DNA of 64,000 bases from a virus, in the IMG/VR virus record IMGVR_UViG_3300034061_002899; one strand, written 5' to 3'. Position numbers and translations under genes: made by a program. Below are positions 4,556-57,241 of this stretch, piece after piece; positions within the stretch are counted from its first letter, which is position 1, and each line of letters opens with the position of its first letter. Below the pieces are notes generated by a model. That model saw nothing but the letters and a program-made list of their open reading frames with translations. It was not told where the DNA came from and did not search any database.

Positions 4556-5382
4556 AAAAAGTTTTAATAACAGGTTGTTCAGGTTACATAGGATCGCATC
4601 TATGTAAACTATTAGCAAATGACTATGAGGTGCATGGATTAGATATTGTTGATCCACAGGCACCGCTCAATGAATTCTATCGATGTGATATCAATAGACA
4701 ATTTACAATGCCGGAAGATATTGAATACGATGCTGTTATTCATTTAGCCGCATTAGTTCGTGTTGGCGAGAGTGAACAAATACCAATCAAATATTATATC
4801 ACTAACTTGAATGGTACGATGAATGTTATCAACAGAATAAAAGCAAAGAACTTTATATTTTCAAGTACAGGTGCCGCACAAGATTGTAATAGCGCATACG
4901 GTATTAGTAAACGTGCGGCAGAAGATGTAGTTAGAGAATATTGTACAAACCATCGAGAAACACCATATACAATCTTTAGATTTTATAATGTTATTGGAAG
5001 CACCGTCGTATCTCCCACTAACCCCGATGGGTTAATGTATAACTTAATGAAGGCACGTGAGAGTGGTGAGTTTACTATATTTGGTAATGACTATGATGTG
5101 AGTGATGATGGTACCTGTGTACGTGACTATGTACATGTCAATGAAATATGTGACGCATTAATGCAAGCAATTGAAAAACCTAGCAATAGTGTTGAATCAC
5201 TTGGGCACGGAGTAGGATGGACTGTTAAAGAAATTGTTGATGAATTTCAAAAAGTCAATAATGTTAGCTTTAATATAAAATACGGGCCAAGAAGAAAGGG
5301 CGACATTGCTAGTAGTGTACTAAAAAATGTATCGCCCTATATGCGTAACTTGTATACGATGGATGAGTTACTTAAGGTTTAA
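4552..5382 (+). CDS. NAD-dependent sugar epimerase (GalE-like)
   Basis: TGCSGYIG, HLAA, YGISK, RFYNV, RDYVHV. Confidence 0.88.
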   Translation: MKKVLITGCSGYIGSHLCKLLANDYEVHGLDIVDPQAPLNEFYRCDINRQFTMPEDIEYDAVIHLAALVRVGESEQIPIKYYITNLNGTMNVINRIKAKNFIFSSTGAAQDCNSAYGISKRAAEDVVREYCTNHRETPYTIFRFYNVIGSTVVSPTNPDGLMYNLMKARESGEFTIFGNDYDVSDDGTCVRDYVHVNEICDALMQAIEKPSNSVESLGHGVGWTVKEIVDEFQKVNNVSFNIKYGPRRKGDIASSVLKNVSPYMRNLYTMDELLKV

Positions 5383-6386
5383 CTTAAACCAATCTTTCCC
5401 GGATACATTGGCCCGTCTTTGATTCTTTCACCACCGTCAAAGTAACGTATTTCAATAGGCATATCTTGCCAGTTTAATCTGTATGCAGCCATGATACGAT
5501 GATTGCCTTCGTTGACCCATGCTTCACCGTTGTAGGCAACCATGATGTATGGAAGATATTCGTGATCGGGACTGTGTGACATGGGTGGTAATTTACCAGT
5601 CTTTTCCATATAATCCATCAACCACTTTAAGTCAGCTTTACGGACATTAGTTTGTTCATGGCGCATACCCGGCAATGATGCCAAACGCATTACACGTACT
5701 CTTGGTGGTGTTCCTCTTACTGAAGCTGTAGTACTGCCCATATATGGTACACCATAACTATTGCGTCCTTGCTTTTTAGCATAGTCAATCTTGCTTTGTA
5801 ACCAATCCTCATTAGGTACGTCTACACTTAGTGTGCCTTCTGTGACACCTTGCTGACCTTTATCTAGAAATGCTACATTGTCTGGTATGCCTAGCTTTTT
5901 AATGCTCCACAGTATTTGATTATATTTTCCATCATATACTAATTTGTCAGATCCTAGATTTGGCGCACTAGAGTTAATTTGTTGTTCTGCTCGTTTATAG
6001 CTTTGAGGTTTGAGATACTTTTTAGCTTCACTAGGCCATCCACCTTGAAGAACATTATATAATGATAGTAAACTAAAAGCCCAGTCTTCTTTATCATCAG
6101 TTTCCCAACCTTGTTCACCGTGAGGATGAGTAACTAATATCGCACCCTTTTGTATAAGAGCCGGTACATTTAATTTTCTACGGTCAACATTAAATGTAGT
6201 GTTTGAATAGCCTTCCGCCACACTTGACCTTGATTCTCCGCCGCCACCATCACCTCCGCCTTCACCGGATTCTCCACTACCTCCGTAGTAGCCATAACCA
6301 GGAAAATAATATCCTCCTGTTCTGCGAATTCTTTTAGATTTTTTTCTAGATTTTTTGCGTTCTATTATAAATTCATTAGCTCTCAT
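5379..6386 (-). CDS. modular putative internal virion protein with C-terminal ParB/Srx-like domain
   Basis: MRANEFIIE leader; Gly/Tyr-rich segment; VAEG and QGVTEG linkers; NEGNHR motif. Confidence 0.65.
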   Translation of the reverse strand: MRANEFIIERKKSRKKSKRIRRTGGYYFPGYGYYGGSGESGEGGGDGGGGESRSSVAEGYSNTTFNVDRRKLNVPALIQKGAILVTHPHGEQGWETDDKEDWAFSLLSLYNVLQGGWPSEAKKYLKPQSYKRAEQQINSSAPNLGSDKLVYDGKYNQILWSIKKLGIPDNVAFLDKGQQGVTEGTLSVDVPNEDWLQSKIDYAKKQGRNSYGVPYMGSTTASVRGTPPRVRVMRLASLPGMRHEQTNVRKADLKWLMDYMEKTGKLPPMSHSPDHEYLPYIMVAYNGEAWVNEGNHRIMAAYRLNWQDMPIEIRYFDGGERIKDGPMYPGKIGLS

Positions 6387-6937
6387 GTATAACCCCTAAC
6401 TCTATCAAAGAAACTTGGTTTACCCTTTGACGGACCTTTAACTTCTCCATGACGTTTATGTTGACTACCATAGTCATAGAATTTACCTACTACATCGAAT
6501 CCATGCTTAAAGAAAATTGCAGCCGGGAAAGGTCTGATATTTTTCATCATTCCCACACGTTCTTTACCTTGTGGTGCTTCTTGTTTATCAGTTGTATTTC
6601 TATCAACTGGTTGTAACCATGCATTTGGTTTTAATCTAACTAACCAAACATAAGGCTTTTCCATAGCATACAAGTCATTATCATTTATATAAGTTTTTAA
6701 TGGATAGAACCACAATGCAGGATTACCCTTGCCTGCACCAATATAATCTGGATAATAGTCTGGATGGTCAATGTCAACACTACGTCCAAACTTTTGTTTA
6801 GCACTAAAGCCTAACTGGTCAATGTCAGTAAAGCGAACAAAGTATTCTTCTGGTCTGCCACCATCACGCTTAACAGCATTGATGATTTGATCCTTAACAC
6901 TTACTTTGGCTTCTGTGATAAACTCAGTGGCTCTCAT
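6383..6937 (-). CDS. putative internal virion protein
   Basis: MRATEFITE leader; coupled to neighbours. Confidence 0.65.
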   Translation of the reverse strand: MRATEFITEAKVSVKDQIINAVKRDGGRPEEYFVRFTDIDQLGFSAKQKFGRSVDIDHPDYYPDYIGAGKGNPALWFYPLKTYINDNDLYAMEKPYVWLVRLKPNAWLQPVDRNTTDKQEAPQGKERVGMMKNIRPFPAAIFFKHGFDVVGKFYDYGSQHKRHGEVKGPSKGKPSFFDRVRGYT

Positions 6938-7116
6938 TTCTTACGTCCTCTAAATCCTGCTGGCATATGTAAATCATTAACGGGGAACATTGATTTGAAC
7001 CATTCATCAGTGCCCGGCTTTGCAGTAATCTTACTACGGTCTATAGGAATAGAAGATGTAGGTTTTCCTCTATAATCATTTACACCAGCAAGTCTTTTAA
7101 GTTCGTCTAAGTTCAT
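6934..7116 (-). CDS. small protein with LKRLAG motif
   Basis: MNLDELKRLAGV; similar RIRKLSGL motif inside 8035-9513. Confidence 0.65.
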   Translation of the reverse strand: MNLDELKRLAGVNDYRGKPTSSIPIDRSKITAKPGTDEWFKSMFPVNDLHMPAGFRGRKK

Positions 7117-7667
7117 AGACTCTTACCCCAACGTGTATTGATTACATTCCAGTTAATAATCTTCCACTGTTCTTTCAAATATTTCTTTTTGTCAGAACCA
7201 TAGTCTAATATCCAGGCATGTTCCCACCAATCAACTAACAACAGTATGTCATTGCGTACTTCATGGTTCTTGATAGTTTTAATCTTACCATCAGTTGCTA
7301 AGTATACCCAACCACTACCTTGAATCTTCATTGCTTCAGTTTCAAACTGATCCTTCATTGATTCGTATGAGCCAAAATGTTTGTTAATAAAGCCCATCAT
7401 AGGACCATTGGGATTATTTTTATTTCTCACTTCACGGAACTGAGGGAATAATGTATTATGTAAAAATGCACCTGCATAGTTAAAATCCTTATCACCCTCA
7501 CCCTTGTTATAGCGTTCAGCATAACCTTTAGCTAGTTTGTCATAGTGAAGTTCTATTGTATCTTTACTAAGAACAGGTGCAAGTTCACCTTCAGTAAAGT
7601 TTAGTGGAATGATTTCTATGTCTTGGGGTTTACTCTTATCCTCAAGTAAAGTAATTAAGTCACGCAT
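7113..7667 (-). CDS. Fe/Mn superoxide dismutase-like protein
   Basis: TIELHY, AFLHN, QGSGWVYL, LLVDWWEHAW: all four metal-ligand positions present. Confidence 0.85.
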   Translation of the reverse strand: MRDLITLLEDKSKPQDIEIIPLNFTEGELAPVLSKDTIELHYDKLAKGYAERYNKGEGDKDFNYAGAFLHNTLFPQFREVRNKNNPNGPMMGFINKHFGSYESMKDQFETEAMKIQGSGWVYLATDGKIKTIKNHEVRNDILLLVDWWEHAWILDYGSDKKKYLKEQWKIINWNVINTRWGKSL

Positions 7668-8035
7668 TAGTCTGTATAATCCTCAACTTGTACAATCATA
7701 TTAGGTAATATATCACCCAAATACATACATTGATCTGTTTCTTTTAAACTGTCAATCCAATTATCAACTGTAGTATGATCCAAATCTCCTACAAGTTTTT
7801 TATGGTCTAATTTATTTACATCAACTGTGATTAATGTTACATAATCATTACCAGTTCTTTCTTGGTCTGACACCGCATACTCTAATGCTAAGTCAGGATT
7901 ATCTGTTAAAAATACTGCATGGTGTCTACCACCTCTTAGACCTTGCTGTTGAATAACATCAGCTGGCTCAGATGTTCCATGCCATAATTGAGTATGATCA
8001 TTTGTATTTTCAAAAATAAACTCTTTGGATAGCAT
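7667..8035 (-). CDS. ADP-ribosyltransferase-fold (KptA/ART-like) protein
   Basis: LWHGT..IQQQGL..VFLTD..ALEYA pattern; MLSKEFIFE leader. Confidence 0.55.
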   Translation of the reverse strand: MLSKEFIFENTNDHTQLWHGTSEPADVIQQQGLRGGRHHAVFLTDNPDLALEYAVSDQERTGNDYVTLITVDVNKLDHKKLVGDLDHTTVDNWIDSLKETDQCMYLGDILPNMIVQVEDYTD

Positions 8036-9513
8036 TAGTGTTTCAATAGTAATGTAGATATGATGTTAGGATCATTAGCACTGATATCACCTTCACCAGG
8101 AGCAACAATAACATTGTACTTCATACCTGCAGGGATAGATTTGCGTTTAGCCATGTACTCATCATAGTTTAGAATACTGTTAGCACTTAGTCCATACTCT
8201 TTAGCAAGACGATTCTTTAGTTCAGGTAACTTGTTAGGTTGTACTTGCCATTGGCCTTCTGACCCCTTAACTAAGTTTTTCTTTTCGTCCTTAACTAACA
8301 AATCTTGGAACAAATCATCTGGAACAATGCGACTATTCTTAGTTGTATCTAAGTTAGCATCTTTGGCTTTGACTTGCTTCTCTTGTCCTGTATTAGCACC
8401 TTCACTCCAGTTGATAATGAAGTTAGGTGGTTTCTGACCTAGCGCGGCACCAGCCATCTTTGTATACGCATAGAACTTAGTATCAGGATGCTTTGCAGCC
8501 ATCTTCAATGCTAAATCTAAGTATTCTGGGCTAAAGAAGTCACCAGCATCATGCCAACGAATGGTTACTGTATAACCACCCTTCTGACCTAATTTTTCTT
8601 CTTTGGCAATTTCACTGCTTAGTTGACTGAAGAAACCATCTGGGTCATTCAATAGATATGTTAGTATACGACCATCACTCTGCCAAGCGGCTTTGAACTG
8701 AACTTTACCACCCTTCATGGCAAAACAATCTATTTTACATGAACCAGCTCCTGGGCATGTATTAACAATGATTAGTTTGTTTGTATCTTCATCCAATGCG
8801 ATACCAGTCAATGCCGCAAAGCCAACGTTAAAGAACTGTTCTAATTCACCGTTACTATGCTTCATCTTTTCGTTTTGCTTTAATAATGCTTTTGGTCTTT
8901 GTGCCAATGCTTGTTTGATTTTATCTTCATTATATGTTTGACCATCAGGACCTAAATATTCAATCACACTACTACGATGTATGTAAGGCATTTTATATCT
9001 GTCTGTCTTTGTTTTACCAGACACATACTTTTCATTGCCCTTCTTGTCAGTCTTAACATTACCTTGTTTATCAACATCAGGAGTACCAATGATACGTTTC
9101 ATGTAGTCTTGGAACTCGTCACCACCAAACTCACGGCTACTTGCTGGTAGTTTAGTTGCTTCATCTAATCCAGATAGTTTGCGAATTCTGTCTAAACCTT
9201 CTGCTACGCTTTTGCCCAACACTTGTTGAACTAGTAGTTCGGGAGCAAAATCCATGTCACCGGCTAATTCTCTTGCCGCTGCCAATACTGCTTCTCTAGT
9301 TGGTTGTAGTCTTCTTTCTTCAACATCACGGCGCAACTTCATTATAAGAGATTGTGCATCATAACCTAAATCACGAACTCCCTCGTCAACTTCTTTTTCA
9401 CCGGGCATATCACCAGCTTTAGCAACGAATTGCTGAGGTGTCATAATTTGTATGCCACTCGGTGCTCCGGGCATTTTTGGCTCTGCGCCTTCAAATAGTT
9501 CTTTAAAATTCAT
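8035..9513 (-). CDS. modular protein with C-terminal Gp88-like (radical-SAM-related) domain
   Basis: TCPGAGSCKIDCFAMKG (CX4CX3C), IRWHDAGDF, FYAYTK; MNFKELFE leader. Confidence 0.7.
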   Translation of the reverse strand: MNFKELFEGAEPKMPGAPSGIQIMTPQQFVAKAGDMPGEKEVDEGVRDLGYDAQSLIMKLRRDVEERRLQPTREAVLAAARELAGDMDFAPELLVQQVLGKSVAEGLDRIRKLSGLDEATKLPASSREFGGDEFQDYMKRIIGTPDVDKQGNVKTDKKGNEKYVSGKTKTDRYKMPYIHRSSVIEYLGPDGQTYNEDKIKQALAQRPKALLKQNEKMKHSNGELEQFFNVGFAALTGIALDEDTNKLIIVNTCPGAGSCKIDCFAMKGGKVQFKAAWQSDGRILTYLLNDPDGFFSQLSSEIAKEEKLGQKGGYTVTIRWHDAGDFFSPEYLDLALKMAAKHPDTKFYAYTKMAGAALGQKPPNFIINWSEGANTGQEKQVKAKDANLDTTKNSRIVPDDLFQDLLVKDEKKNLVKGSEGQWQVQPNKLPELKNRLAKEYGLSANSILNYDEYMAKRKSIPAGMKYNVIVAPGEGDISANDPNIISTLLLKH

Positions 9514-10940
9514 AGTATTTCTTTCCTAGCTTTAGCTACCATTTGTTCGGCAAGCATTAGTAATTCTTCCATCTGCTCAATGGATTCACAATTCCATCTA
9601 CGTAAACTCTTATTAATATTGCTATTTGGATCTCTTGCTGTCTTGGCACTTGTTCTACTTTTCTTCATACCTTTCATTCTAGCACAGAATGACTTACGGC
9701 GTTTAGCGGCTTTACTACCCTTTTTAAGTTTGCTAGGTTTAGTAGTTACTGCTGTTTGAATCTTGCTACCAGGGTGACTGCGGCGATAACTACTCACAGA
9801 TTTTTTGCTCATCCCGCCAACACGTTTGTTATTGTGCTTTGACCAATTCTCACCTTCATTTGTTGCCATTTCACCATCATCACTATGACCATAATATGCG
9901 GCTACTTTTTGTAAATCAGCAGAATTTCTAGCATTGAGATAATCAGTTACTAAATCGTGAATTTGATTTCTTTGTTCCATTGGTGGAGGTAATTCTATTT
10001 CACCTTCACTGGCATCAGCAATATGTGCGGCACCGGGGCTATCTAAGAACCAGATTTCATCATCTTCATCCCATTCTAATCCCCATTTGTCTATTGTTGC
10101 AGTTAACACATAGTTATTGGTAGTACCTACTACAAACTTGTTACCACCTATATAACGTGAACTAGTAGGTTTACCATAATCTTTTGGTCCGCCACCACCG
10201 CCTGTGGGAGGCTTATTAGGAGCAAATTCATTTAGCTCGCCTTCACTTTTAGGTTTCTGATGATGTTTTTTCATATTGATAGCAATAGCGGCTTGTTGTG
10301 CTGGGTTTGCGGCTTCCCCCACACCTTTATTTCTGCCGGCCATTTGAATTACTATTAATGGTACTCTATTATCATCTTTGTCACCGCTATGTGTTATTCT
10401 ATTATATTCTTTTACTTTTAGTGCTACTGTATCGGGATCCATAACCTCTTTACTTATCACCTCATATCTAGTACCCGGTTCAAGCCCAGCTTTTTTTAAA
10501 TCGTCTATATGAATAGGTGTACCAGTGCCACTACCATCTGCATATGTTACGCTTTTTTTTAACCATCCGGGTTGAGGTTTTGTACTAATATACACAATGC
10601 CTCCTGAATCCACACCCGCATAAATATAATCAGGTAAATGCAGAATGCTCTGTAAATTTTTATTTGGATATGTTTTAAAATATTTTGTTACTACTGAACT
10701 AGTGTTCGTGTAGTCATCTATTTTTTGTTTTTGAATTTCTACTGCTTCTTCTTCAGATCCAACTTCAACCTCAGGAAAAAGTTTTGTTATATTAGTAACT
10801 TGGTTACCATTTCTATCACCCACCCAGGCTTTAGCAGTGTTGGAATTTTTAAGCGTAAATGCTTTAATAACATAGCCTTTATATGGCAATTCTACACCCT
10901 CATTTAACACATTTTCAATTAAAAATTCGTTTGCTCTCAT
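9510..10940 (-). CDS. modular putative internal virion protein, C-terminal basic DUF6321-like domain
   Basis: MRANEFLIE leader; RRKSFCARM...DPNSNINKSLRRWNC; several xxE-G/A linkers. Confidence 0.65.
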   Translation of the reverse strand: MRANEFLIENVLNEGVELPYKGYVIKAFTLKNSNTAKAWVGDRNGNQVTNITKLFPEVEVGSEEEAVEIQKQKIDDYTNTSSVVTKYFKTYPNKNLQSILHLPDYIYAGVDSGGIVYISTKPQPGWLKKSVTYADGSGTGTPIHIDDLKKAGLEPGTRYEVISKEVMDPDTVALKVKEYNRITHSGDKDDNRVPLIVIQMAGRNKGVGEAANPAQQAAIAINMKKHHQKPKSEGELNEFAPNKPPTGGGGGPKDYGKPTSSRYIGGNKFVVGTTNNYVLTATIDKWGLEWDEDDEIWFLDSPGAAHIADASEGEIELPPPMEQRNQIHDLVTDYLNARNSADLQKVAAYYGHSDDGEMATNEGENWSKHNNKRVGGMSKKSVSSYRRSHPGSKIQTAVTTKPSKLKKGSKAAKRRKSFCARMKGMKKSRTSAKTARDPNSNINKSLRRWNCESIEQMEELLMLAEQMVAKARKEIL

Positions 10941-10995: not shown

Positions 10996-11001
10996 TATTT
11001 A
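10996..11001 (-). promoter_or_regulatory. late-type promoter (TAAATA) for the 10940-5379 operon
   Basis: GATAAATA on minus strand upstream of 10940. Confidence 0.5.
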
Positions 11002-11017
11002 TCATTTTGGTCTATCT

Positions 11018-32860: not shown

Positions 32861-34057
32861 ATGACATCTGAATCTAAACTAAACCATTGTTCCTTTTGTG
32901 GTAATCACAAAGATAAAGTTACTAAACTTATTGTAAGCGAGGATGTTGCTATCTGTAGCGACTGTATTGAATTATGTAACCAATTGGTTATTGATGAAAT
33001 TGGCCCAACTGAGTCAACCCAAAATACAACCAACGATCCACATGATATTAAACAATACTTAGATGAACATGTAATTGGACAAGATAGTGCTAAAACAGTA
33101 TTAAGTGTGGCCATTGCTAATCATTATAAGCGCATTACACATCCACCCAAAGACTTAGAAATCAGTAAGGGTAACGTATTGATTATTGGACCTACTGGTT
33201 CAGGTAAAACACTATTAGCTAAAACTGTAGCCAAATATTTGAATGTACCATTTGTTGTTGCTGATGCTACCAGTTTAACCGAAGCTGGTTATGTAGGGGA
33301 TGATGTTGAATCAATGATTAGCATGTTGGTCAATGCCGCAGGCGGTGATCCTAAATTGGCAGAACGTGGTATTGTGTTTGTTGATGAGATTGATAAAATC
33401 GCCCGTAAGAGTGAGTCATCGAGTATCACACGTGATGTATCAGGTGAGGGTGTACAACAAGCATTACTTAAACTAGTTGAGGGCACTGTGTGTCGTATTC
33501 CAGCAGCCGGCGGACGTAAACATCCCGGAGGTGAAATGATGGAAGTCAACACAAAGAATATCTTGTTTATTGCAGGAGGTGCGTTTGTTGGATTAAAAGA
33601 TATTATTTCTAATCGTCAAAATGGCACAAGTATTGGCTTTGGCGCAAGCATTAAAGAGAACAAAAAAGAGGGTGATTTGAGTAGTGTAACACCAGATGAT
33701 TTAACTAAGTTTGGTATGATTCCTGAGTTTATTGGACGCTTTACTACGACAGTAAGTATTGGGGAGTTGGGTAAAGATGAACTAAAACTAGTATTAACAT
33801 CTGTCAAAAACAACTATATAAAACAGTACCAATATTTGTTCAGTATCGATGGTATTGAGTTAAACTTTGATGATAGTGCTTTGGATCAGATTGTAGATAA
33901 CTGTTTAAAACTAAAGACTGGGGCACGAGGGTTGCATACTGAAATCGAACGTGTATTAATGCCACATATGTTTAACATTAACAAATACAAAGAAAATAAC
34001 GTAAAAGTGATAAATATTAATCAGGACAGAGTTTTAGAACCAAAAATTAATTTATGA
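32861..34057 (+). CDS. clpX: Clp protease ATP-binding subunit ClpX
   Basis: CSFC..CSDC Zn finger, [24 protein letters not shown] loop. Confidence 0.96.
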
Positions 34058-36759: not shown

Positions 36760-36789
36760 CCGTGATAAATACTCTATAGGTATATTATT

Positions 36790-38139
36790 ATGAGAGCAAA
36801 AGAATTTTTATCAGAGTCTAAAGGTATCATGGGCCGTATTCCCGGAGACAAATTCACCAATGGGGATAATATTTTAGAATTTCAAAATGTTACAGTATTT
36901 CCAGAAGAAACTATACAGTATGAAACACCGGAAGAGCGTGACGCCGTAATTGCATCTATAGAAAAAAAGTTAAAGACTAAAATACAATGGTCTAATAGTC
37001 CCAATAAAGGATCATTAGCATTTGGTATAGCAACCCTCACTGACCCACTAAACAATGATGCTCCAGTATACTGGGGTAGATACTTTAAACAAAAAATGGT
37101 AGATATGATGGGTGCTTGGAAAAATAGTGAAGTTCCCGCAGGATGGAAGCTACAGAAATCAGGATCTTTAAAATTAGATATAGCTATTGATCCACAGCAT
37201 CTTATTGCAACTGATGGAAAATTTAAAACAGTAGAACAAGTTATTAGAACAGTAGATAAAAACAGTCAAGGCAATCCGTTACATGATTCATTAGTAAATG
37301 GATTAAAACAAATCAAAGCAAGACAAAATCCTGTATTCGTCAATCAAATAAAAAATTTACCAGCACTTAGAGATTACTTCGGTGAGATCATGGGCCCGTG
37401 CGCCCTAATGTCAGGAATGATTGGTGGTCAAGCAGAAGATGCTAACAAACAATTATTAGAAGGTTCAGGTTGGGCTTCATGTCAAGTATTTTGGCCACAG
37501 GCCATGAACACAAACCTTGTTGACAGTGTATTCATAGGACCAAAAGGCCAAGAAATAGGTATTAGTAGCAAAGGTGGTAAGGGTGCTAGAGCAAGCGCAA
37601 AGAACATTGCAGACGCTATTAACAAAGCACCAGATGAACTAAAGGCTGAATATCCCTTTACTGTTGAAATATTAAACATAGTTCAAAATAGTACGGCATT
37701 AGATGCACCTTTTAGATTAGCAGAATTACTACAAATGTTACCTGCAAATCTTGAAAGAGAAATACTAAGTTATATTAAGTCAGGAAAAACTGATTACAAT
37801 GGACTAAGCAAAGATGCAAAAGAACTTTTTGATTATGGTACTCCTAGGCAAGATGTTCCCGGTTTCAACACAGGATATGCCTTGTTAGCATTGCTAGCTA
37901 AAAAAATGTCAAGTATTGTGAATGAAAATCCAACCTTTAGTGAAGGTGCAATAACATTCTTAAACCAATCAAGTATTGTTCAATTATATTGTAAGATGGG
38001 TAAGAGTGGAAATGATGCCCGTGTTACAGGTTGGGACGCCGTTTATCCACCAAACTTCCAAGGCCGTGTTGTATTAGATGGAAGTAAAAACTATTATAGT
38101 TCACGCATTGGCGGCAAATTCGCATTCGGGTTTGTTTGA
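36790..38139 (+). CDS. putative internal virion protein, possible PD-(D/E)XK-like fold
   Basis: MRAKEFLSE leader; GE..LVD..ISSKGG; TAAATA upstream. Confidence 0.55.
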   Translation: MRAKEFLSESKGIMGRIPGDKFTNGDNILEFQNVTVFPEETIQYETPEERDAVIASIEKKLKTKIQWSNSPNKGSLAFGIATLTDPLNNDAPVYWGRYFKQKMVDMMGAWKNSEVPAGWKLQKSGSLKLDIAIDPQHLIATDGKFKTVEQVIRTVDKNSQGNPLHDSLVNGLKQIKARQNPVFVNQIKNLPALRDYFGEIMGPCALMSGMIGGQAEDANKQLLEGSGWASCQVFWPQAMNTNLVDSVFIGPKGQEIGISSKGGKGARASAKNIADAINKAPDELKAEYPFTVEILNIVQNSTALDAPFRLAELLQMLPANLEREILSYIKSGKTDYNGLSKDAKELFDYGTPRQDVPGFNTGYALLALLAKKMSSIVNENPTFSEGAITFLNQSSIVQLYCKMGKSGNDARVTGWDAVYPPNFQGRVVLDGSKNYYSSRIGGKFAFGFV

Positions 38140-47904: not shown

Positions 47905-48227
47905 ATGTTTGGTCCTTTCTTATAAGGCACGAGCTTCATGTCGTCCCCTAATCCTACAATGCATGATAGATTATTTTTAGTTGCTACTATAGTCCAATTA
48001 TTGTCAACTGGATTTATCCAAACACTGACTATGGATTTGACGGCATCACCTGCTTTACCCGTCATGACGGGCATCTCTTTGTACTTTTCTCTTAAGGATT
48101 TGAATAACTCAGATGAATCATAGCAAGGTAAATCTATTTCAACCTTGTCCTTAATTTCTTGCGAGTAGGAATTACTTGCTAGTAGCCCTGTACACACCAT
48201 CCCAATCAGTAGGCAAATTGTTTTCAC
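47901..48227 (-). CDS. secreted hypothetical protein
   Basis: Signal peptide; two Cys in mature part. Confidence 0.6.
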   Translation of the reverse strand: MKTICLLIGMVCTGLLASNSYSQEIKDKVEIDLPCYDSSELFKSLREKYKEMPVMTGKAGDAVKSIVSVWINPVDNNWTIVATKNNLSCIVGLGDDMKLVPYKKGPNI

Positions 48228-50223
48228 GTAGTTCTCCTATTCGTGCTATCATTATATCATAATAGTGGTCCATGTGCGAATCAAATTCACCCTTTAATTG
48301 ATCTATCATGTGTAATGCTTGATCCCATTTCTGTTCCCTATAGTAATCTATCATCAAGTCATGTAATTCACGTGCTGATAGATATTCTGCCATGCTGTTT
48401 GGATCAGTCTTTAATGGCGTGTAGATATTTAATCCGATTGTTTTACCCTTCACAGCAATACAATCTAGTTCTAAGGTAAAGATTTCATCCTTAACTTGTT
48501 CATTGGTATTAGGACCAATGATACATAACACACCATAACCCTTAGTCTGTCCTTCTAATCTAGCCGCAGTAGAAACGCTGTCGCCTAACACATCATAGCC
48601 AAACTTAGTCTTAGCACCTATATTGCCAATCAATGTTTCACCTGTGTTAACACCTGCACCCATGCCAACTGGTGGACGGCCATTGGAGGTCAACTCTTTA
48701 TTGAATTCTTCAATAGCATCAATCATTTGCATGGCAGTATTAACAGCAGTTACCGCATGTTTACTATCATCTAATGGAGCACCATGCACATGCAAACTTG
48801 CGTCACCAATAAACTTAATTAATGTACCATCATTCTTTAATACCGGTACACTTAATGCGGTCATGTAGTCATTCATAATCTGTGTCAAGCCTTCAACATC
48901 ATCACCAAAACTTTCACCTAAACTAGTGAAGCCACGCAAGTCAGTCATAACAATAGATAGTTCACGCTTCTCACCGCCTAATTTAATTAAGCTAGGATCT
49001 TTTTGTAATCGTTCAACGATTGTTGGATTAACATAACTACCAAATTGTTTCTTAATCTGTTGCTTCTGTAAGAATTCACTTACAAACTTAACAGTATAAG
49101 CATGAAGATAAACCAAACCAATGCCACCAACAGGGGCGGTAATATCATAGAGCCATAGATTGGATGTGAATAGATATGACGCAACATAATGACTAGAAGC
49201 AAGAACAATAATAACTGGGATAAAAGCATATGTCCACCTTGATAAAAATATAACTAATAAACCTAACGCTAGTATAGCGATAAGTTCTACACCGTCTGCA
49301 TAATCAGGTCTTTCAATAACAACTTTGTTAAACATTGTACCTATTACACTTGCTTGAACATCATGTGGCCATACACTACCTTTACTTGTTGGTACGGGGT
49401 TGTTTAGTCCACTTGCTGTCAATCCTACAATAACAATAGCACCATCAAAGTCTTTTGGTAGTTCCATTAATGAAACTGATTTACTTTGTTGACTGTAATC
49501 AATCCAAATGCGACCCAAGTTATCTGTAGTGATAGGGCCGAACTTAGGTATACGCATTTTCTCTACACCGTTCTCATTTAGTTTAACTTGAAATGTTGTA
49601 TCGCCGGCTGCCGCTCTTAATACTTCCATACTTAAACTTGGATAGAGTTTACCATCTACACTAGCAATCAATGGAATACGTCTATTGACACCATCAATCT
49701 CCGGTAATGTATTAACTGTACCAACACCATAAGCACTGTTTTCTAATACAGGCACGTTAGCAATGATGCCAGGATATTGAACGATTTGATCTAACCATTC
49801 AGGGGCTAATACTGCCGCACCTGGATTACGGGGTATGTTTTTTGTTTTGTCGCTTGGTACATTGGGAAGTATAACAGGATACTGTTTCATTGTACTTGCC
49901 AATTTAGTGTCTTGACCACTTCTATCAGTATCGGGCATTAATACATTAAAGACAACAAGTCCGGCGTTACGACTATATAGGTCTTCTATTATCTTTGCGT
50001 ATTCACCTCTAGGTAATGGCCATTGACCATACTTAGTAAGTGTTGCTTCATCTATATTGACTGTATAGATATTATTTTCTGTTGGGGCTTTGTTAGTGAT
50101 AAGAGTATCAAAATAGCGTAAGCGTACAGATTCTACGAAAGAAGGATCAGCAATTCTAATAGATAGCACAAATGCTAAGGTAAGAATAGCGGTCCAGGGA
50201 CTAAGTATAATTTTCTTAAACAT
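48172..50223 (-). CDS. CHASE2-domain class III adenylate cyclase
   Basis: TM-CHASE2-3TM; TDLRGFT, KFIGDA, YDVLGD..AARLE (Lys/Asp ATP-specifying residues). Confidence 0.92.
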   Translation of the reverse strand: MFKKIILSPWTAILTLAFVLSIRIADPSFVESVRLRYFDTLITNKAPTENNIYTVNIDEATLTKYGQWPLPRGEYAKIIEDLYSRNAGLVVFNVLMPDTDRSGQDTKLASTMKQYPVILPNVPSDKTKNIPRNPGAAVLAPEWLDQIVQYPGIIANVPVLENSAYGVGTVNTLPEIDGVNRRIPLIASVDGKLYPSLSMEVLRAAAGDTTFQVKLNENGVEKMRIPKFGPITTDNLGRIWIDYSQQSKSVSLMELPKDFDGAIVIVGLTASGLNNPVPTSKGSVWPHDVQASVIGTMFNKVVIERPDYADGVELIAILALGLLVIFLSRWTYAFIPVIIVLASSHYVASYLFTSNLWLYDITAPVGGIGLVYLHAYTVKFVSEFLQKQQIKKQFGSYVNPTIVERLQKDPSLIKLGGEKRELSIVMTDLRGFTSLGESFGDDVEGLTQIMNDYMTALSVPVLKNDGTLIKFIGDASLHVHGAPLDDSKHAVTAVNTAMQMIDAIEEFNKELTSNGRPPVGMGAGVNTGETLIGNIGAKTKFGYDVLGDSVSTAARLEGQTKGYGVLCIIGPNTNEQVKDEIFTLELDCIAVKGKTIGLNIYTPLKTDPNSMAEYLSARELHDLMIDYYREQKWDQALHMIDQLKGEFDSHMDHYYDIMIARIGELRENNLPTDWDGVYRATSK

Positions 50224-55752: not shown

Positions 55753-55764
55753 TGTCTGCTCCGA

Positions 55765-55790
55765 TAAATATAATAATACTCATATATTTA
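55765..55790. promoter_or_regulatory. opposed TAAATA late promoters
   Basis: + strand TAAATA 55765-70; - strand TAAATA 55785-90. Confidence 0.5.
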
Positions 55791-56345: not shown

Positions 56346-56684
56346 ATGGATGTAGTAACACTAATTAATAAGTATGGTTTCCCTATCGTTATGGCGGTGG
56401 GTATGGGCTTCATTATCAAATACGTTTGGGAATGGGCCACAAAAGAAGTTAAGCCTGTTATCAAAGATGCTGAAGCTGTATTGATAGCATTGATTGACCG
56501 TATCAGAATGTTAGATAATGACTTGATACGATTGAATCAAAAAGTTAATACAGTATTACATTTGCGTGGCAAGACTATTGAACATGAACGAGTTATTGCT
56601 GAAAAAGAAATCAATAAACCTTTTGTTGAGTTCGTTACAAAAGAAATTACTGAAGCTAATAAAGATACAACTACTAAAAAATGA
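56346..56684 (+). CDS. small membrane protein (holin-like, GFPI family)
   Basis: YGFPIVMAVGMG TM; ALIDRIRMLDNDLIR. Confidence 0.65.
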   Translation: MDVVTLINKYGFPIVMAVGMGFIIKYVWEWATKEVKPVIKDAEAVLIALIDRIRMLDNDLIRLNQKVNTVLHLRGKTIEHERVIAEKEINKPFVEFVTKEITEANKDTTTKK

Positions 56685-57241
56685 AAATTACTGAATTAAT
56701 GGAAGACACAACTAAAAAGATGCCTCATCTATATTTAGATATGGATGGCGTACAAGCCGATTTCTTCGGAGCTTGGGCCGCAATGCATAATGTCGGTAAC
56801 TATAAAGATATTCCTGATACTGAAACATCAATTAATCAATTAGCCTCAAGTAGCCCCGAAGAAGTATATAAATTTTTTAGAGAATTAAAACCACTTCAAG
56901 GCGGTGGTAAAATTGTACAATGGTTACATAAAAATAAAATTCCGTTCACTGTGTTAAGTGCTCCATTACGTGGGCCATATTCTAAGGCTAGTGTTGAGGC
57001 TAAAAAAGATTGGTTAGATGAATACAATCCGGGCGCTACAGAAAATGCTATCTTTACTCAACATAAACACAAATATGCATTAAGCAATGGTGAGCCAAAT
57101 GTATTAGTGGATGATTATGGTAAATATCTTAATGCTTGGAGTGGTGCTGGTGGTATCGCTGTTAAGCATGAGGATGGTAATACTAACCATACTATTAAAG
57201 AGCTAGAAAAGATTTATGCTCCCTACTTGATAGCTAAGTAA
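56681..57241 (+). CDS. HAD 5'(3')-deoxyribonucleotidase-like protein
   Basis: YLDMDGVQADF, LSAP, LVDD; MKITELME leader. Confidence 0.82.
   Translation: MKITELMEDTTKKMPHLYLDMDGVQADFFGAWAAMHNVGNYKDIPDTETSINQLASSSPEEVYKFFRELKPLQGGGKIVQWLHKNKIPFTVLSAPLRGPYSKASVEAKKDWLDEYNPGATENAIFTQHKHKYALSNGEPNVLVDDYGKYLNAWSGAGGIAVKHEDGNTNHTIKELEKIYAPYLIAK

What the first reader, a model, noticed from the sequence alone, without database searches (positions are those of the whole stretch)
5379..10940. Late operon of enzymes carrying T4 capsid-targeting-like leaders: a packaged, injected cargo set
Seen: six of seven genes start with MRANEFIIE, MRATEFITE, MRDLITLLE, MLSKEFIFE, MNFKELFE or MRANEFLIE. The same leader type recurs at 36790 (MRAKEFLSE) and 56681 (MKITELME). 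A TAAATA late motif precedes the operon. Known: T4 internal proteins use the CTS MKTYQEFIAE, which the gp21 prohead protease removes after (I/L)xE. Inference: otherwise unrelated domains (SOD, ART-fold, Gp88-like, ParB-like, HAD, nuclease-like) have been tagged for head packaging and delivery with the DNA, giving a ready-made toolkit that acts before transcription.
Basis: partly seen in the sequence, partly recalled or inferred. Interest (0 to 1): 0.8.

Follow-up and report, generated by a model that had tools for sequence, protein, structure and literature searches.

The report
T4-style capsid-cargo leaders, jumbo phage
An uncultured freshwater giant phage puts a nine-residue tag, almost the same as the one phage T4 uses to load proteins into its head, on a run of unrelated enzymes, so they are probably packed into the virus particle, trimmed by the head protease and delivered with the DNA, although nobody has shown this at the bench.

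Summary

The tag is not chance. It heads 6 of 158 genes against 0.29 expected, and follows 1 of 655 internal Met. Its synonymous codons vary freely.

T4 ipII and ipIII translate to MKTYQEFIAE; here the tag is MRANEFIIE.

New evidence:
- Where a tagged protein of one phage is an internal module in a relative, the joint reads hydrophobic-x-Glu in 22 of 29 distinct joints and ends in Glu in 27 of 29. Tag and linker ((Q)GV[AT]EG) are therefore interchangeable cut signals.
- All 6 relatives at least 90% complete that I searched encode a gp21-type head protease. His85 and Ser140 are kept in the one I aligned.
- The units sit behind a GATAAATA late-type motif.
- A strict DNA pattern for the tag finds at least 120 stretches of viral contigs.

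Packaging, cutting and injection remain inferred. Virion mass-spectrometry flags in the cultured relative PA5oct give mixed support.

This scan has reported the same system before on other genomes. I class it as a new variant of the T4 capsid-targeting system.

The parts
10996..11002 (-). ATAAATA (in GATAAATA) late-promoter-like motif, 55 nt before the first ATG of the operon
   Evidence: Read. 22 of 32 occurrences in the record and 35 of 38 in G001 lie within 100 nt upstream of a gene start in sense, against 6-8% expected. In G001 the motif precedes head and other large genes.
9510..10940 (-). 476-aa protein. Tag MRANEFLIE (10914-10940). Candidate internal cut site GVGE|A (10311-10325). C-terminal DUF6321 (about 9594-9824).
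   Evidence: (DUF6321 E 2.8e-10). Its C-terminal part recurs behind other tags and linkers in relatives. The DUF6321 part is also found in cyanophage P-HM1 between the terminase genes, there without such a tag.
8035..9513 (-). 492-aa protein. Tag MNFKELFE (9490-9513). Linker SVAE|G (VAEG at 9196-9207). GP88 domain (about 8371-8883).
   Evidence: (GP88 E 4.5e-25). The 14 blastp rows to relatives' ORFs match only from residue 95-167 on. Those ORFs start with tag-like MRFNELQE, MRFTELLE, MKIKDLILKE, MRAHDFILKE and the like.
7667..8035 (-). 122-aa protein. Tag MLSKEFIFE (8009-8035). ART-superfamily-like domain (Tpt1/KptA NAD lobe-like), LWHGTS motif.
   Evidence: Tpt1 E 0.017; profile: 10 of 11 hits Tpt1, best E 0.0053; ART-PolyVal E 0.033, DUF3990 E 0.057, both below cut-off. 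Most of the 30 aligned homologues keep a tag ending in two hydrophobic residues, any residue, then Glu or Asp, but P0038 and P0044 show none. In 4 of 5 longer forms the module is internal and preceded by DVTE, DITE, DITE or ELVE.
7113..7667 (-). 184-aa Fe/Mn superoxide dismutase with N-terminal add-on MRDLITLLE (7641-7667)
   Evidence: Sod_Fe_C E 2.5e-24; Sod_Fe_N 26.0 bits against cut-off 27; residue 18 aligns with residue 4 of chain 1ues_A, so about 17 residues are extra. The His, His, Asp and His of ELH, LHN and DWWEH match the chain. The G001 orthologue starts MELRDSINLVE. The PA5oct homologue starts MNDSIKKYISIAE. The Vibrio phage 2.275.O SOD has no such tag.
6934..7116 (-). 60-aa ORF, MNLDELKRLAGV..., without a clear tag
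   Evidence: no family; one homologue in L024. The start of PA5oct virion protein 0203, MFNINDILRLAGV, resembles it. That resemblance was judged by eye only.
6383..6937 (-). 184-aa protein of unknown fold with tag MRATEFITE (6911-6937)
   Evidence: no family, no PDB relative. Atlas leads only: ART-PolyVal 0.88, Arr 0.87.
5379..6386 (-). 335-aa polyprotein. Tag MRANEFIIE (6360-6386). Polybasic then Gly/Tyr-rich spacer. SVAE|G (VAEG at 6210-6221). Module 1 (about 5850-6209). GVTE|G (5835-5849). Module 2, ParB/sulfiredoxin-like (5382-5834).
   Evidence: The two modules match relatives separately. Module 2 stands alone in G001 as a 161-aa protein MRAQEFITE|GKLSVD, aligned column for column with QQGVTE|GTLSVD here. 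Fold evidence: Atlas ParB_N/sulfiredoxin 0.94, no PDB hit.
36765..38139 (+). GATAAATA (ATAAATA at 36765-36771), then a 449-aa protein of unknown function with tag MRAKEFLSE (36790-36816)
   Evidence: No Pfam, PHROG or PDB relative. A protein with a nearly identical start (MRALEFISESKGVFGR, 455 aa) in L115 was not aligned. There is a 26%-identical homologue in G001.
56681..57241 (+). 186-aa NT5C/HAD 5'-deoxyribonucleotidase with MKITELME (56681-56704). Weaker member. Fourth gene of a run whose first gene (55846) has ATAAATA at 55764-55770.
   Evidence: NT5C E 1.4e-8; phrog_2643 E 1.9e-23. In relatives the domain is the C-terminal module of a 341-aa protein starting MKASEFQIH and lies at the start of a 571-aa reading frame that runs from an end of locus L026 (cut). 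A tag-less 155-aa form also exists.

Best explanation
The window comes from a fragment (about 29%) of an uncultured jumbo myovirus, roughly 350 kb, of the T4 superfamily. The seven-gene operon, and at least two other genes in the window, encode head cargo.

Each protein starts with an 8-9 residue pro-peptide, M-(R/K)-x-x-(E/D)-hydrophobic-hydrophobic-x-E. This is the counterpart of the T4 capsid targeting sequence MKTYQEFIAE. Larger proteins are chains of modules joined by short linkers that end in the same hydrophobic-x-Glu motif, typically (Q)GV(A/T)E|G.

Proposed course of events:
1. The genes are transcribed late from GATAAATA-type promoters.
2. The pro-peptide docks the protein to the scaffolding core while the prohead assembles.
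3. The gp21-type serine protease cuts after the Glu of every tag and linker.
4. The freed domains (Fe/Mn SOD, an ART-superfamily domain, a GP88-family domain, a ParB/sulfiredoxin-like domain, DUF6321, possibly an NT5C nucleotidase) stay in the head among the DNA.
5. They enter the next cell with the DNA and can act before any phage gene is expressed.

Shown here: the motif, its excess at gene starts, its constraint at the protein level, the exchange of tag for linker between relatives, the late-type motif, and the presence of a T4-like protease, scaffold-position gene and capsid gene in complete relatives.

Inferred: docking, cutting, retention in the head, ejection, and what each enzyme does in the host.
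For: (1) Likeness to T4.
- ipII and ipIII start MKTYQEFIAE and ipI starts MKTFKEFIKE.
- T4 gp24, gp22 and gp21 start MAKINELLRE, MLKEQLIAE and MNEPQLLIE.
- Tags here and in relatives include MRANEFIIE and MRAQEFIAE.

(2) Excess at gene starts.
- 6 of 158 against 0.29 expected; 1 of 655 internal Met.
- 36 pattern matches against 0 for the backwards control in 10 records.
- Of 95 matches in 80 scanned loci, 85 are the first ATG of their ORF.

(3) Constraint at the protein level.
- In 94 distinct tags the Ala, Glu, Phe, Ile and Glu codons follow gene-body usage. Only Arg2 is skewed: AGA 0.78 against 0.33.
- QGV[AT]EG has 11 DNA versions.

(4) Tag equals linker.
- Of 29 distinct internal joints homologous to a tag's end, 27 have Glu at P1 and 22 read [VILMF]-x-E. 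Backgrounds are 6.2% and 2.0% per position (alignment).
- A prediction made beforehand held in 4 of 5 longer forms of the 122-aa protein.

(5) All 7 matches to [SG]VxE[GA] in the record lie in tagged proteins or in their neighbour, the 749-aa polyprotein.

(6) Machinery.
- Peptidase_S77 is present in 4 of 4 relatives and in 6 of 6 tag-bearing records at least 43% complete. That makes 6 of 6 records at least 90% complete.
- His85 and Ser140 of T4 gp21 are conserved; PDB 5jbl E 3.6e-15.
- G001 has portal, small core-like protein, acidic protein, protease, an unnamed gene where T4 has its scaffold gene, then capsid gene, in the T4 order.
- The capsid pro-piece shares W..LLEG and I(L/F)EN with T4 gp23.

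(7) Late-type motif before all tagged units.

(8) The tag is an add-on. About 17 extra residues precede the SOD fold.

(9) The cargo of relatives suits ejected proteins. Of 120 tagged proteins, 6 have GH19, and LysM, peptidase M48, ParB_N and GNAT occur once each.

(10) In PA5oct the SOD homologue and the two strictly T4-type starts (0150, 0238) are flagged ESI-MS/MS, from purified virions.
Against: - No proteomic, structural or genetic datum exists for this phage. Cutting and packaging are inferred.
- The own record has no protease or capsid gene; it is 29% complete.
- PA5oct test: my pre-set pattern was not enriched among virion-detected proteins (2 of 93 against 5 of 365, p 0.43), and a general hydrophobic-x-E near the start was not either (18 of 93 against 49 of 365, p 0.10). 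Only a pattern written after I had seen the data was enriched (5 of 93 against 2 of 365).
- That virion preparation also held thymidylate synthase, QueD, ligase and FtsH, which the authors count as virion-unrelated.
- RaK2, Vibrio 2.275.O, Atu_ph07 and Phosso have no such tag. The Vibrio phage SOD lacks one.
- Two tagged proteins of relatives carry a twin-arginine export signal right after the tag. This could mean export from the producing cell rather than packaging.
- 7 of 29 joints lack the full motif, and 1 of 5 longer forms has none.
- The joints fall into about eight module families, three of which supply 22 of the 29, so the counts are not independent.
Confidence: 0.68

Rival explanations
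1. The motifs are real sites for the head protease, but the proteins are prohead-core or scaffold-like components. They would be cut up and expelled, or stay as structural filler, and would not be working enzymes delivered to the next host.
For: - T4 core proteins gp22 and gp21 have the same kind of start. That T4 breaks such core proteins down is stated in PMC5694885 (passages read).
- The commonest tagged family (44 of 120) is small and of unknown function.
- The 335-aa protein has a polybasic, Gly-rich pro-piece.
Against: - The cargo includes a SOD that keeps the residues matching the chain's ELH, LHN and DWWEH positions, an NT5C, GH19 lysozymes and a GP88 domain.
- The domains are conserved at 50-98% identity among homologues, which points to selected activities.
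- The cut motifs sit between the domains and not within them.
Confidence: 0.14
2. The tag is another kind of address or control signal. Candidates are a recognition tag for the phage's own ClpX unfoldase, the n-region of an export signal, or a translation-start enhancer. On this reading it has nothing to do with the head.
For: - The window encodes ClpX (32861-34057), and PA5oct encodes ClpX, ClpS, ClpP and ClpA.
- Two tagged proteins of relatives have a Tat signal right behind the tag.
- Codon 2 is strongly biased to AGA.
Against: - T4 has the same tag, and no clpX was seen in the two T4 stretches I fetched. That T4 lacks ClpX altogether is recalled. In T4 the tag's job is capsid targeting (PMC9958956, PMC5694885, passages read).
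- An N-terminal signal cannot explain why the same hydrophobic-x-Glu motif marks internal joints.
- Positions 5-9 are constrained as residues, not as bases.
- Only 2 of the 120 tagged proteins matched my Tat-signal pattern (RR-x-F-[LIV] in the first 80 residues).
Confidence: 0.08
3. The shared starts and linkers are mainly footprints of cassette exchange. Short conserved DNA at gene and module borders would promote recombination, with no function as peptide.
For: - Modules are shuffled between relatives exactly at tags and linkers.
- Another first-stage note on this stretch proposed the linker as a recombination site (e1-5669015).
Against: - Synonymous sites in 94 tags and in 11 linker versions vary as in gene bodies.
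- P3 and P1 are kept while the bases and the neighbouring residues change.
- This reading can add to the best explanation but cannot replace it.
Confidence: 0.05

Closest known systems
Phage T4 internal proteins IPI, IPII, IPIII and Alt, with their capsid targeting sequence, processed by prohead protease gp21
   Same: - An N-terminal peptide of about ten residues ending in (I/L)-x-Glu, with the same EF(I/L)xE core.
- Carried by unrelated proteins.
- A gp21-type protease with the catalytic His and Ser.
- A T4-like head gene order.
- A TATAAATA-like late motif.
- T-even internal proteins are described as a diverse set sharing only the targeting sequence (PMC3012670, passage read).
   Different: - The tag is one residue shorter and starts MRA.
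- The cargo is recognisable enzymes (SOD, GP88, NT5C, ART-like) rather than small basic proteins.
- Many cargo proteins are multi-module chains with internal cut motifs. I know of no such chains for T4 (recalled).
- Val is common at P3.
- The host phage is a roughly 350-kb freshwater jumbo phage.
- Nothing has been shown experimentally.
Processed inner-body and ejection proteins of phiKZ-like giant phages (phiKZ, 201phi2-1, SPN3US)
   Same: Many head-internal proteins are cut after Glu by a gp21-related protease. Conserved N-terminal pro-pieces are thought to target proteins to the prohead (PMC5694885, passages read).
   Different: - There P3 is small (A-x-E; S/A/G-x-E), and pro-pieces are often over 100 residues.
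- Here P3 is hydrophobic and the tag is 8-9 residues, as in T4.
- The lineage is different. The nearest PolB relatives are Phosso, Atu_ph07 and RaK2-like phages.
Polyvalent proteins of phages and conjugative elements (Iyer et al. 2017, PMC5512222)
   Same: Multi-domain, fast-shuffling proteins predicted to be packed in the head and injected. Their repertoire includes ART, ParB-like, lysozyme, peptidase and GNAT domains (passages read). The same domain kinds appear among tagged proteins here.
   Different: - That paper proposes cutting by built-in zincin-like peptidase domains. The passages I read describe no T4-type tag and no hydrophobic-x-Glu joints.
- ART-PolyVal matches here only below the curated cut-off.
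Virion proteome of jumbo phage PA5oct (Lood et al. 2020, PMC7318152)
   Same: - A cultured relative with the same head gene order and a similar accessory set: ClpX, queD, ligase, SOD.
- Its SOD homologue (37% identical over residues 1-182) and two proteins with T4-type starts are flagged as detected in virion preparations.
   Different: - In the passages I read, the paper does not discuss tags, cutting or the SOD ('superoxide' occurs 0 times).
- The tags are more diverged.
- The supplementary peptide tables were not open to me.

Membership tests
T4-type capsid-targeted, gp21-processed head cargo | N-terminal peptide of about 10 residues resembling MKTYQEFIAE and ending in (I/L)-x-Glu | tested here: met
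   Met by 5 of 7 operon proteins plus 36790. These read M-x3-E-F-(I/L)-x-E, or MRDLITLLE for the SOD. MNFKELFE and MKITELME are shorter variants.
T4-type capsid-targeted, gp21-processed head cargo | Genome encodes a gp21-type (Peptidase_S77) prohead protease with catalytic His and Ser | tested here: inconclusive
   Not found in the own 101-kb record, which is 29% complete. Found in 6 of 6 tag-bearing or related records at least 90% complete. His85 and Ser140 are conserved in G001.
T4-type capsid-targeted, gp21-processed head cargo | Late transcription together with the head genes | tested here: met
   By sequence only. GATAAATA lies 55, 18 and 75 nt before the three units in the window. The motif is almost confined to gene-upstream positions and precedes head and other large genes in G001. 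No expression data.
T4-type capsid-targeted, gp21-processed head cargo | Tag removed by cleavage after Glu | not testable with these tools
   Indirect only: 27 of 29 homologous internal joints end in Glu.
T4-type capsid-targeted, gp21-processed head cargo | Protein present inside mature heads and ejected with the DNA | not testable with these tools
   The only datum is the ESI-MS/MS flag on the PA5oct SOD homologue. The enrichment test in PA5oct was mixed.
Fe/Mn superoxide dismutase (7113-7667) | Pfam Sod_Fe_C and Sod_Fe_N above curated cut-off; metal-ligand residues kept | tested here: met
   Sod_Fe_C 85.7 bits against cut-off 20.9. Sod_Fe_N 26.0 against 27, just below. 158 PDB SOD chains matched, best E 3.1e-26. 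His, His, Asp and His align with the chain. Which residues bind metal is recalled knowledge.
ADP-ribosyltransferase superfamily (7667-8035) | Significant match to an ART-fold family or a predicted ART fold | tested here: inconclusive
   Tpt1/KptA: E 0.017 (single sequence) and 0.0053 (profile), with 10 of 11 listed chains being Tpt1. ART-PolyVal 15.4 bits against cut-off 31.2.
ParB/sulfiredoxin-like domain (5382-5834) | Match to ParB_N or a solved ParB/Srx structure | tested here: inconclusive
   No Pfam hit at E up to 1. No PDB hit with a 10-sequence profile. Atlas feature score 0.94 to ParB_N and sulfiredoxin clusters. ParB_N E 9.2e-6 on 1 of 120 tagged relatives.
Polyvalent proteins (Iyer et al. 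2017) | Two to fifteen conflict-type domains in one chain, in a phage late or virion context | tested here: inconclusive
   Multi-module chains are present: 335 aa here, 749 and 583 aa elsewhere in the record, up to 1,898 aa in relatives. Most modules have no named family.
phiKZ-type processed ejection proteins | Cut motif with a small residue at P3 (S/A/G-x-E) | tested here: not met
   P3 is V, I, L, M or F in 22 of 29 joints and in the tags.

The most novel reading that the evidence does not exclude
A widespread clade of uncultured jumbo T4-like phages uses a simple, evolvable 'address and cut' grammar. Any protein becomes head cargo either by gaining the nine-residue tag or by being spliced into a chain between hydrophobic-x-Glu joints. 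Relatives freely swap one form for the other.

This lets them pre-load a changing enzyme kit that works in the next cell before transcription. The kit includes SOD, ART-like, ParB-like, nucleotidase and lysozymes.

For some cargo, cutting would uncover a twin-arginine signal, so that the injected protein is sent on to the periplasm of the new host.
Probability: 0.35. Interest if true: 0.78.

Novelty: new variant of a known kind. Interest (0 to 1): 0.62.

Why it matters
- **Reach of the T4 mechanism.** If true, the T4 capsid-targeting mechanism, known from a few small proteins of T-even phages, is a general loading system in large environmental phages. A strict pattern finds at least 120 stretches of viral contigs.
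- **A way to read virion cargo from sequence.** Tagged or jointed proteins would be predicted virion cargo. This assigns a place of action to many genes of unknown function.
- **Enzymes that may act first.** It points to enzymes that may work in the first seconds of infection. A packaged SOD would be unusual for a phage.
- **A natural rule set for capsid loading.** Tag or joint would offer rules for loading foreign proteins into capsids.
- **Easy to test.** Virion mass spectrometry with a semi-tryptic search would do it, and published PA5oct data could be re-read.

Tried and rejected
- **Chance.** Rejected by position-specific counts and a backwards-pattern control.
- **DNA-level repeat or RNA element.** Rejected as the main cause, because synonymous sites vary.
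- **Sigma-70 promoters and terminators inside the operon.** No more than in shuffles: 21 against 21.3 and 3 against 4.0.
- **tRNAs.** None in the window.
- **Near-identical phage DNA.** Only a 62-base match of the DUF6321 part to P-HM1 and P-HM2. That cyanophage gene has no tag.
- **The tag in cultured relatives.** No in-frame match in RaK2, Vibrio 2.275.O, Atu_ph07 or Phosso. T4 gave its three ip genes as a positive control.
- **Protease in the own record.** None.
- **Folds.**
  - PDB sequence searches gave nothing for the 335-aa, 449-aa and 184-aa proteins.
  - Pfam at E up to 1 gave nothing for both modules of the 335-aa protein, the 184-aa protein and the 207-aa protein, and only a noise-level hit for the 449-aa protein (DUF2281, E 0.22, below cut-off).
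  - A weak chimallin hit on the N-part of the 492-aa protein (E 0.025, 13 bits against cut-off 27) was dismissed as noise.
- **PA5oct enrichment test.** The pre-set pattern failed (p 0.43). The post hoc pattern (p 0.005) is reported as post hoc. Non-MS ORFs there were my own ORF calls, not the record's CDS list.
- **Literature.** Searches found no paper describing T4-type tags or hydrophobic-x-Glu-jointed cargo chains in jumbo or uncultured T4-like phages. The library lacks most subscription journals, and supplements were closed. The PaBG paper was not relevant.
- **Limits of my gene calls.** They use ATG starts only, a 40-aa minimum and greedy overlap removal.

Full report
**What is there.** The window is the reverse strand of bases 1481-65480 of a 101,148-base IMG/VR virus record that CheckV rates 29% complete. 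Its family-B DNA polymerase is closest to Sinorhizobium phage Phosso (49.5%), Agrobacterium phage Atu_ph07 (46.2%) and RaK2-like Klebsiella phages (about 44%). These are jumbo myoviruses of the T4 superfamily.

- The window also encodes ClpX, an ATP-dependent ligase, UvdE, a 5'-3' exonuclease and a CHASE2-cyclase.
- Pfam names three of them: Fe/Mn SOD, GP88 and DUF6321. It also names NT5C at 56681.
- The other four operon proteins and the 449-aa protein at 36790 match nothing in Pfam or PHROGs.

**Is the tag more than chance?** Yes.

- The core [ED][FLIM][FLIMV]x[ED] begins at residue 5 in 6 of 158 called genes, against 0.29 expected. The nine-residue pattern follows only 1 of 655 internal Met. 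In the complete relative G001 the figures are 7 of 424 and 2 of 2,206.
- A degenerate DNA pattern that fixes only M, a broad second residue, E, F, a hydrophobic-type codon and E gave 36 matches in 8 of 10 related records. Nearly all read Arg-Ala at positions 2-3 without being asked to. The pattern read backwards gave none.
- In the 80 loci returned, 85 of 95 matches are the first ATG of their ORF.
- In 94 distinct tags, the codons of Ala3, Glu5, Phe6, Ile7 and Glu9 follow gene-body usage. Only Arg2 is skewed, to AGA. Ser, which the pattern also allowed at position 2, occurs once. The constraint is therefore on the peptide.

**Likeness to T4.**

- T4 ipII and ipIII translate to MKTYQEFIAE. The pattern scan also found ipI, MKTFKEFIKE.
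- T4 gp24, gp22 and gp21 start MAKINELLRE, MLKEQLIAE and MNEPQLLIE.
- Reviews state that about 10 N-terminal residues form a capsid targeting sequence that loads even GFP into T4 heads. [quoted passage not shown]
- Tags in this clade include MRAQEFIAE, which shares six residues in a row with T4.

**A second motif, and its exchange with the tag.** A lead from another first-stage note on this stretch made me look for a VxEG linker.

- All 7 matches to [SG]VxE[GA] in the record lie in tagged proteins or in their neighbour, the 749-aa polyprotein. In this operon they are SVAE|G in the 492-aa and 335-aa proteins, GVTE|G in the 335-aa protein and GVGE|A in the 476-aa protein.
- The two modules of the 335-aa protein match relatives separately.
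- In G001 the second module is a free-standing 161-aa protein. Its tag MRAQEFITE|GKLSVD aligns column for column with QQGVTE|GTLSVD here.
- I then took every case where the mature start of a tagged protein aligns to an internal place in another protein. Of 29 distinct joints, 27 end in Glu and 22 read [VILMF]-x-E. Backgrounds are 6.2% and 2.0% per position. The joints belong to about eight module families, three of which supply 22 of the 29, so they are not independent. Within a family, however, the flanking residues change (SINE, DVNE, NVSE, IVKE, SLDE) while P3 and P1 stay.
- As a test set up beforehand, I fetched longer proteins containing the 122-aa ART-like domain. In 4 of 5 the module is preceded by DVTE, DITE, DITE or ELVE, and one has no such motif. 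Three of the four share the upstream module.
- QGV[AT]EG occurs in 11 DNA versions.

**Machinery.**

- The own fragment has no protease gene.
- The four related large records all have Peptidase_S77 and Gp23.
- Of 15 further tag-bearing records, all 6 that are at least 43% complete have the protease. The 9 fragments of 17-35% have none.
- Together, 6 of 6 records at least 90% complete have it.
- In G001 (352,754 bases, terminal repeats) the order is portal, a 72-aa protein (MILNELYSK), an acidic 275-aa protein (MNKFEQLIE), the protease, a 361-aa gene where T4 has its scaffold gene, and the capsid gene. This is the order in T4.
- The protease keeps His85 and Ser140 of T4 gp21.
- The capsid protein matches T4 gp23 at E 3e-40. 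Its pro-piece shares W..LLEG and I(L/F)EN with T4.

**Timing.**

- ATAAATA is nearly confined to the 100 nt before gene starts, in sense: 35 of 38 occurrences in G001 and 22 of 32 in the own record, against 6-8% expected.
- In G001 it precedes the head module and other large genes, some of them probably tail genes.
- In the window, GATAAATA lies 55 nt before the operon, 18 nt before 36790, and 75 nt before the first gene of the run that ends with the NT5C gene.
- Outside the window it precedes the tagged 207-aa and the 583-aa proteins.
- No sigma-70-like or terminator-like excess lies inside the operon.

**Cargo.**

- The SOD aligns to solved SODs from its residue 18 on, so its tag is an add-on, and the ligand-position residues match.
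- The 122-aa protein gives only weak hits, all to the ART superfamily. Most of its 30 aligned homologues carry a tag of one of two kinds (MKIKELLIE-like or MRDLLTLLE-like), while P0038 and P0044 show none.
- The second module of the 335-aa protein is ParB/sulfiredoxin-like by language-model features only.
- The 184-aa and 449-aa proteins stay unknown.
- Among 120 distinct tagged proteins from relatives, which fall into 28 single-linkage clusters, Pfam finds GH19 in 6, DUF6934 in 3 and DUF6321 in 2. LysM, peptidase M48, HiPIP, DUF6886, ParB_N, DUF5872, GNAT and a Tat signal occur once each.
- The largest cluster, 44 proteins of 117-141 aa, often occurs in tandem pairs. It has no family and may be the bulk internal protein.

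**Experimental hints from a cultured relative.**

- The best phage match to the SOD, covering residues 1-182, is in Pseudomonas jumbo phage PA5oct. It has the same head gene order.
- Its SOD homologue starts MNDSIKKYISIAE and carries the record's ESI-MS/MS note. The paper explains this note as detection in purified virion preparations (PMC7318152, passages read).
- The two PA5oct proteins with strictly T4-type starts, 0150 (MKINDIITE) and 0238, are also flagged. The gene in the scaffold position, 0153 (annotated hypothetical), is not.
- Against this, my pre-set pattern is not enriched among the 93 flagged proteins (2 of 93 against 5 of 365). A general hydrophobic-x-E test is not significant. 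Only a pattern written after seeing the data is enriched.
- The preparation also contained enzymes the authors call virion-unrelated.

**What speaks against, and what is open.**

- RaK2, Vibrio phage 2.275.O, Atu_ph07 and Phosso lack the tag. The Vibrio phage SOD has none. The system therefore belongs to a sub-clade and to T-even phages, and common descent versus convergence is open.
- Two tagged proteins of relatives carry a twin-arginine signal directly after the tag, or after tag plus QGVAEG. Either cutting exposes an export signal for use in the next host, or some tagged proteins are exported from the producing cell.
- Folding was unavailable.

**Known or new.**

- The targeting sequence, its removal by gp21 and the diversity of T-even internal proteins are textbook.
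- Processed ejection proteins of phiKZ-like phages and the polyvalent-protein concept are published.
- I found no paper on T4-type tags on enzymes, or on hydrophobic-x-Glu-jointed cargo chains, in jumbo or uncultured T4-like phages. The library is incomplete.
- This scan has already reported the same system on other genomes (e1-5826867, e1-5862810, e1-6033753, e1-5841470, e1-5756021, e1-5826881), and first-stage notes on leader-bearing SODs exist. Those are unchecked AI notes and I do not count them as evidence.

**Verdict.** This is a new variant of a known kind. My confidence is 0.68 in the packaged-and-cut reading, and lower for delivery and early action.

Noticed in passing
L088:2992-3609 and L010:8350-9579 (relatives): Two tagged proteins carry a twin-arginine (Tat) export signal. 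In one it follows the tag directly; in the other it follows tag plus QGVAEG. One continues into a GH19-like lysozyme. The other continues into an HExxH peptidase and DUF6321. This could be a two-step address (capsid, then periplasm of the next host), or a sign that not all tagged proteins are packaged.
   Followed up: partly
G001 263121-263878 (L069:3121-3875) and many loci L082-L155: This is the commonest tagged family: 44 of 120 distinct tagged proteins. Members are 117-141 aa and often occur in tandem pairs. They share a conserved Y..YR.G.A.A core and a C-terminus SPVK.FKGYKRK. There is no Pfam or PHROG match. It is a candidate bulk internal protein. It is not present in the 101-kb record.
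   Followed up: partly
window 6255-6359 (residues 10-44 of the 335-aa protein): Right after the tag comes a polybasic run (RKKSRKKSKRIRR) and then a Gly/Tyr/Ser-rich acidic spacer, up to SVAE|G. Many relatives have the same tag-plus-ERKKKRRK start. It may be a DNA-binding pro-piece.
   Followed up: no
G000:C1:87803-99357 (outside the window; L004): This is a second cargo cluster in the same record. It holds a 207-aa protein (MRFTEISE, SVVE|G), a 749-aa chain with three E-G-(V/L)-x-E-G linkers and DUF5872, a 2,009-aa protein, and a 583-aa protein (MNLKELDSF). The N-terminal 240 residues of the 583-aa protein are shared by chains of up to about 1,550 aa in relatives (a 1,898-aa chain shares only its middle part) and hit nucleotidyltransferase families weakly.
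   Followed up: partly
window 32861-34057: A phage-encoded ClpX. The cultured relative PA5oct encodes ClpX, ClpS, ClpP and ClpA. A published overview suggests such unfoldases might help load proteins into heads (PMC7824862, passage read).
   Followed up: no
window 48172-50223: A 683-aa CHASE2 sensor fused to an adenylate/guanylate cyclase domain on the minus strand. It lies among genes with signal-peptide-like starts.
   Followed up: no
PA5oct record MK797984, 84724-85830: The gene in the scaffold position (0153, annotated hypothetical) is not among the 93 proteins detected in virions, while its neighbours are. This fits scaffold degradation as in T4.
   Followed up: no
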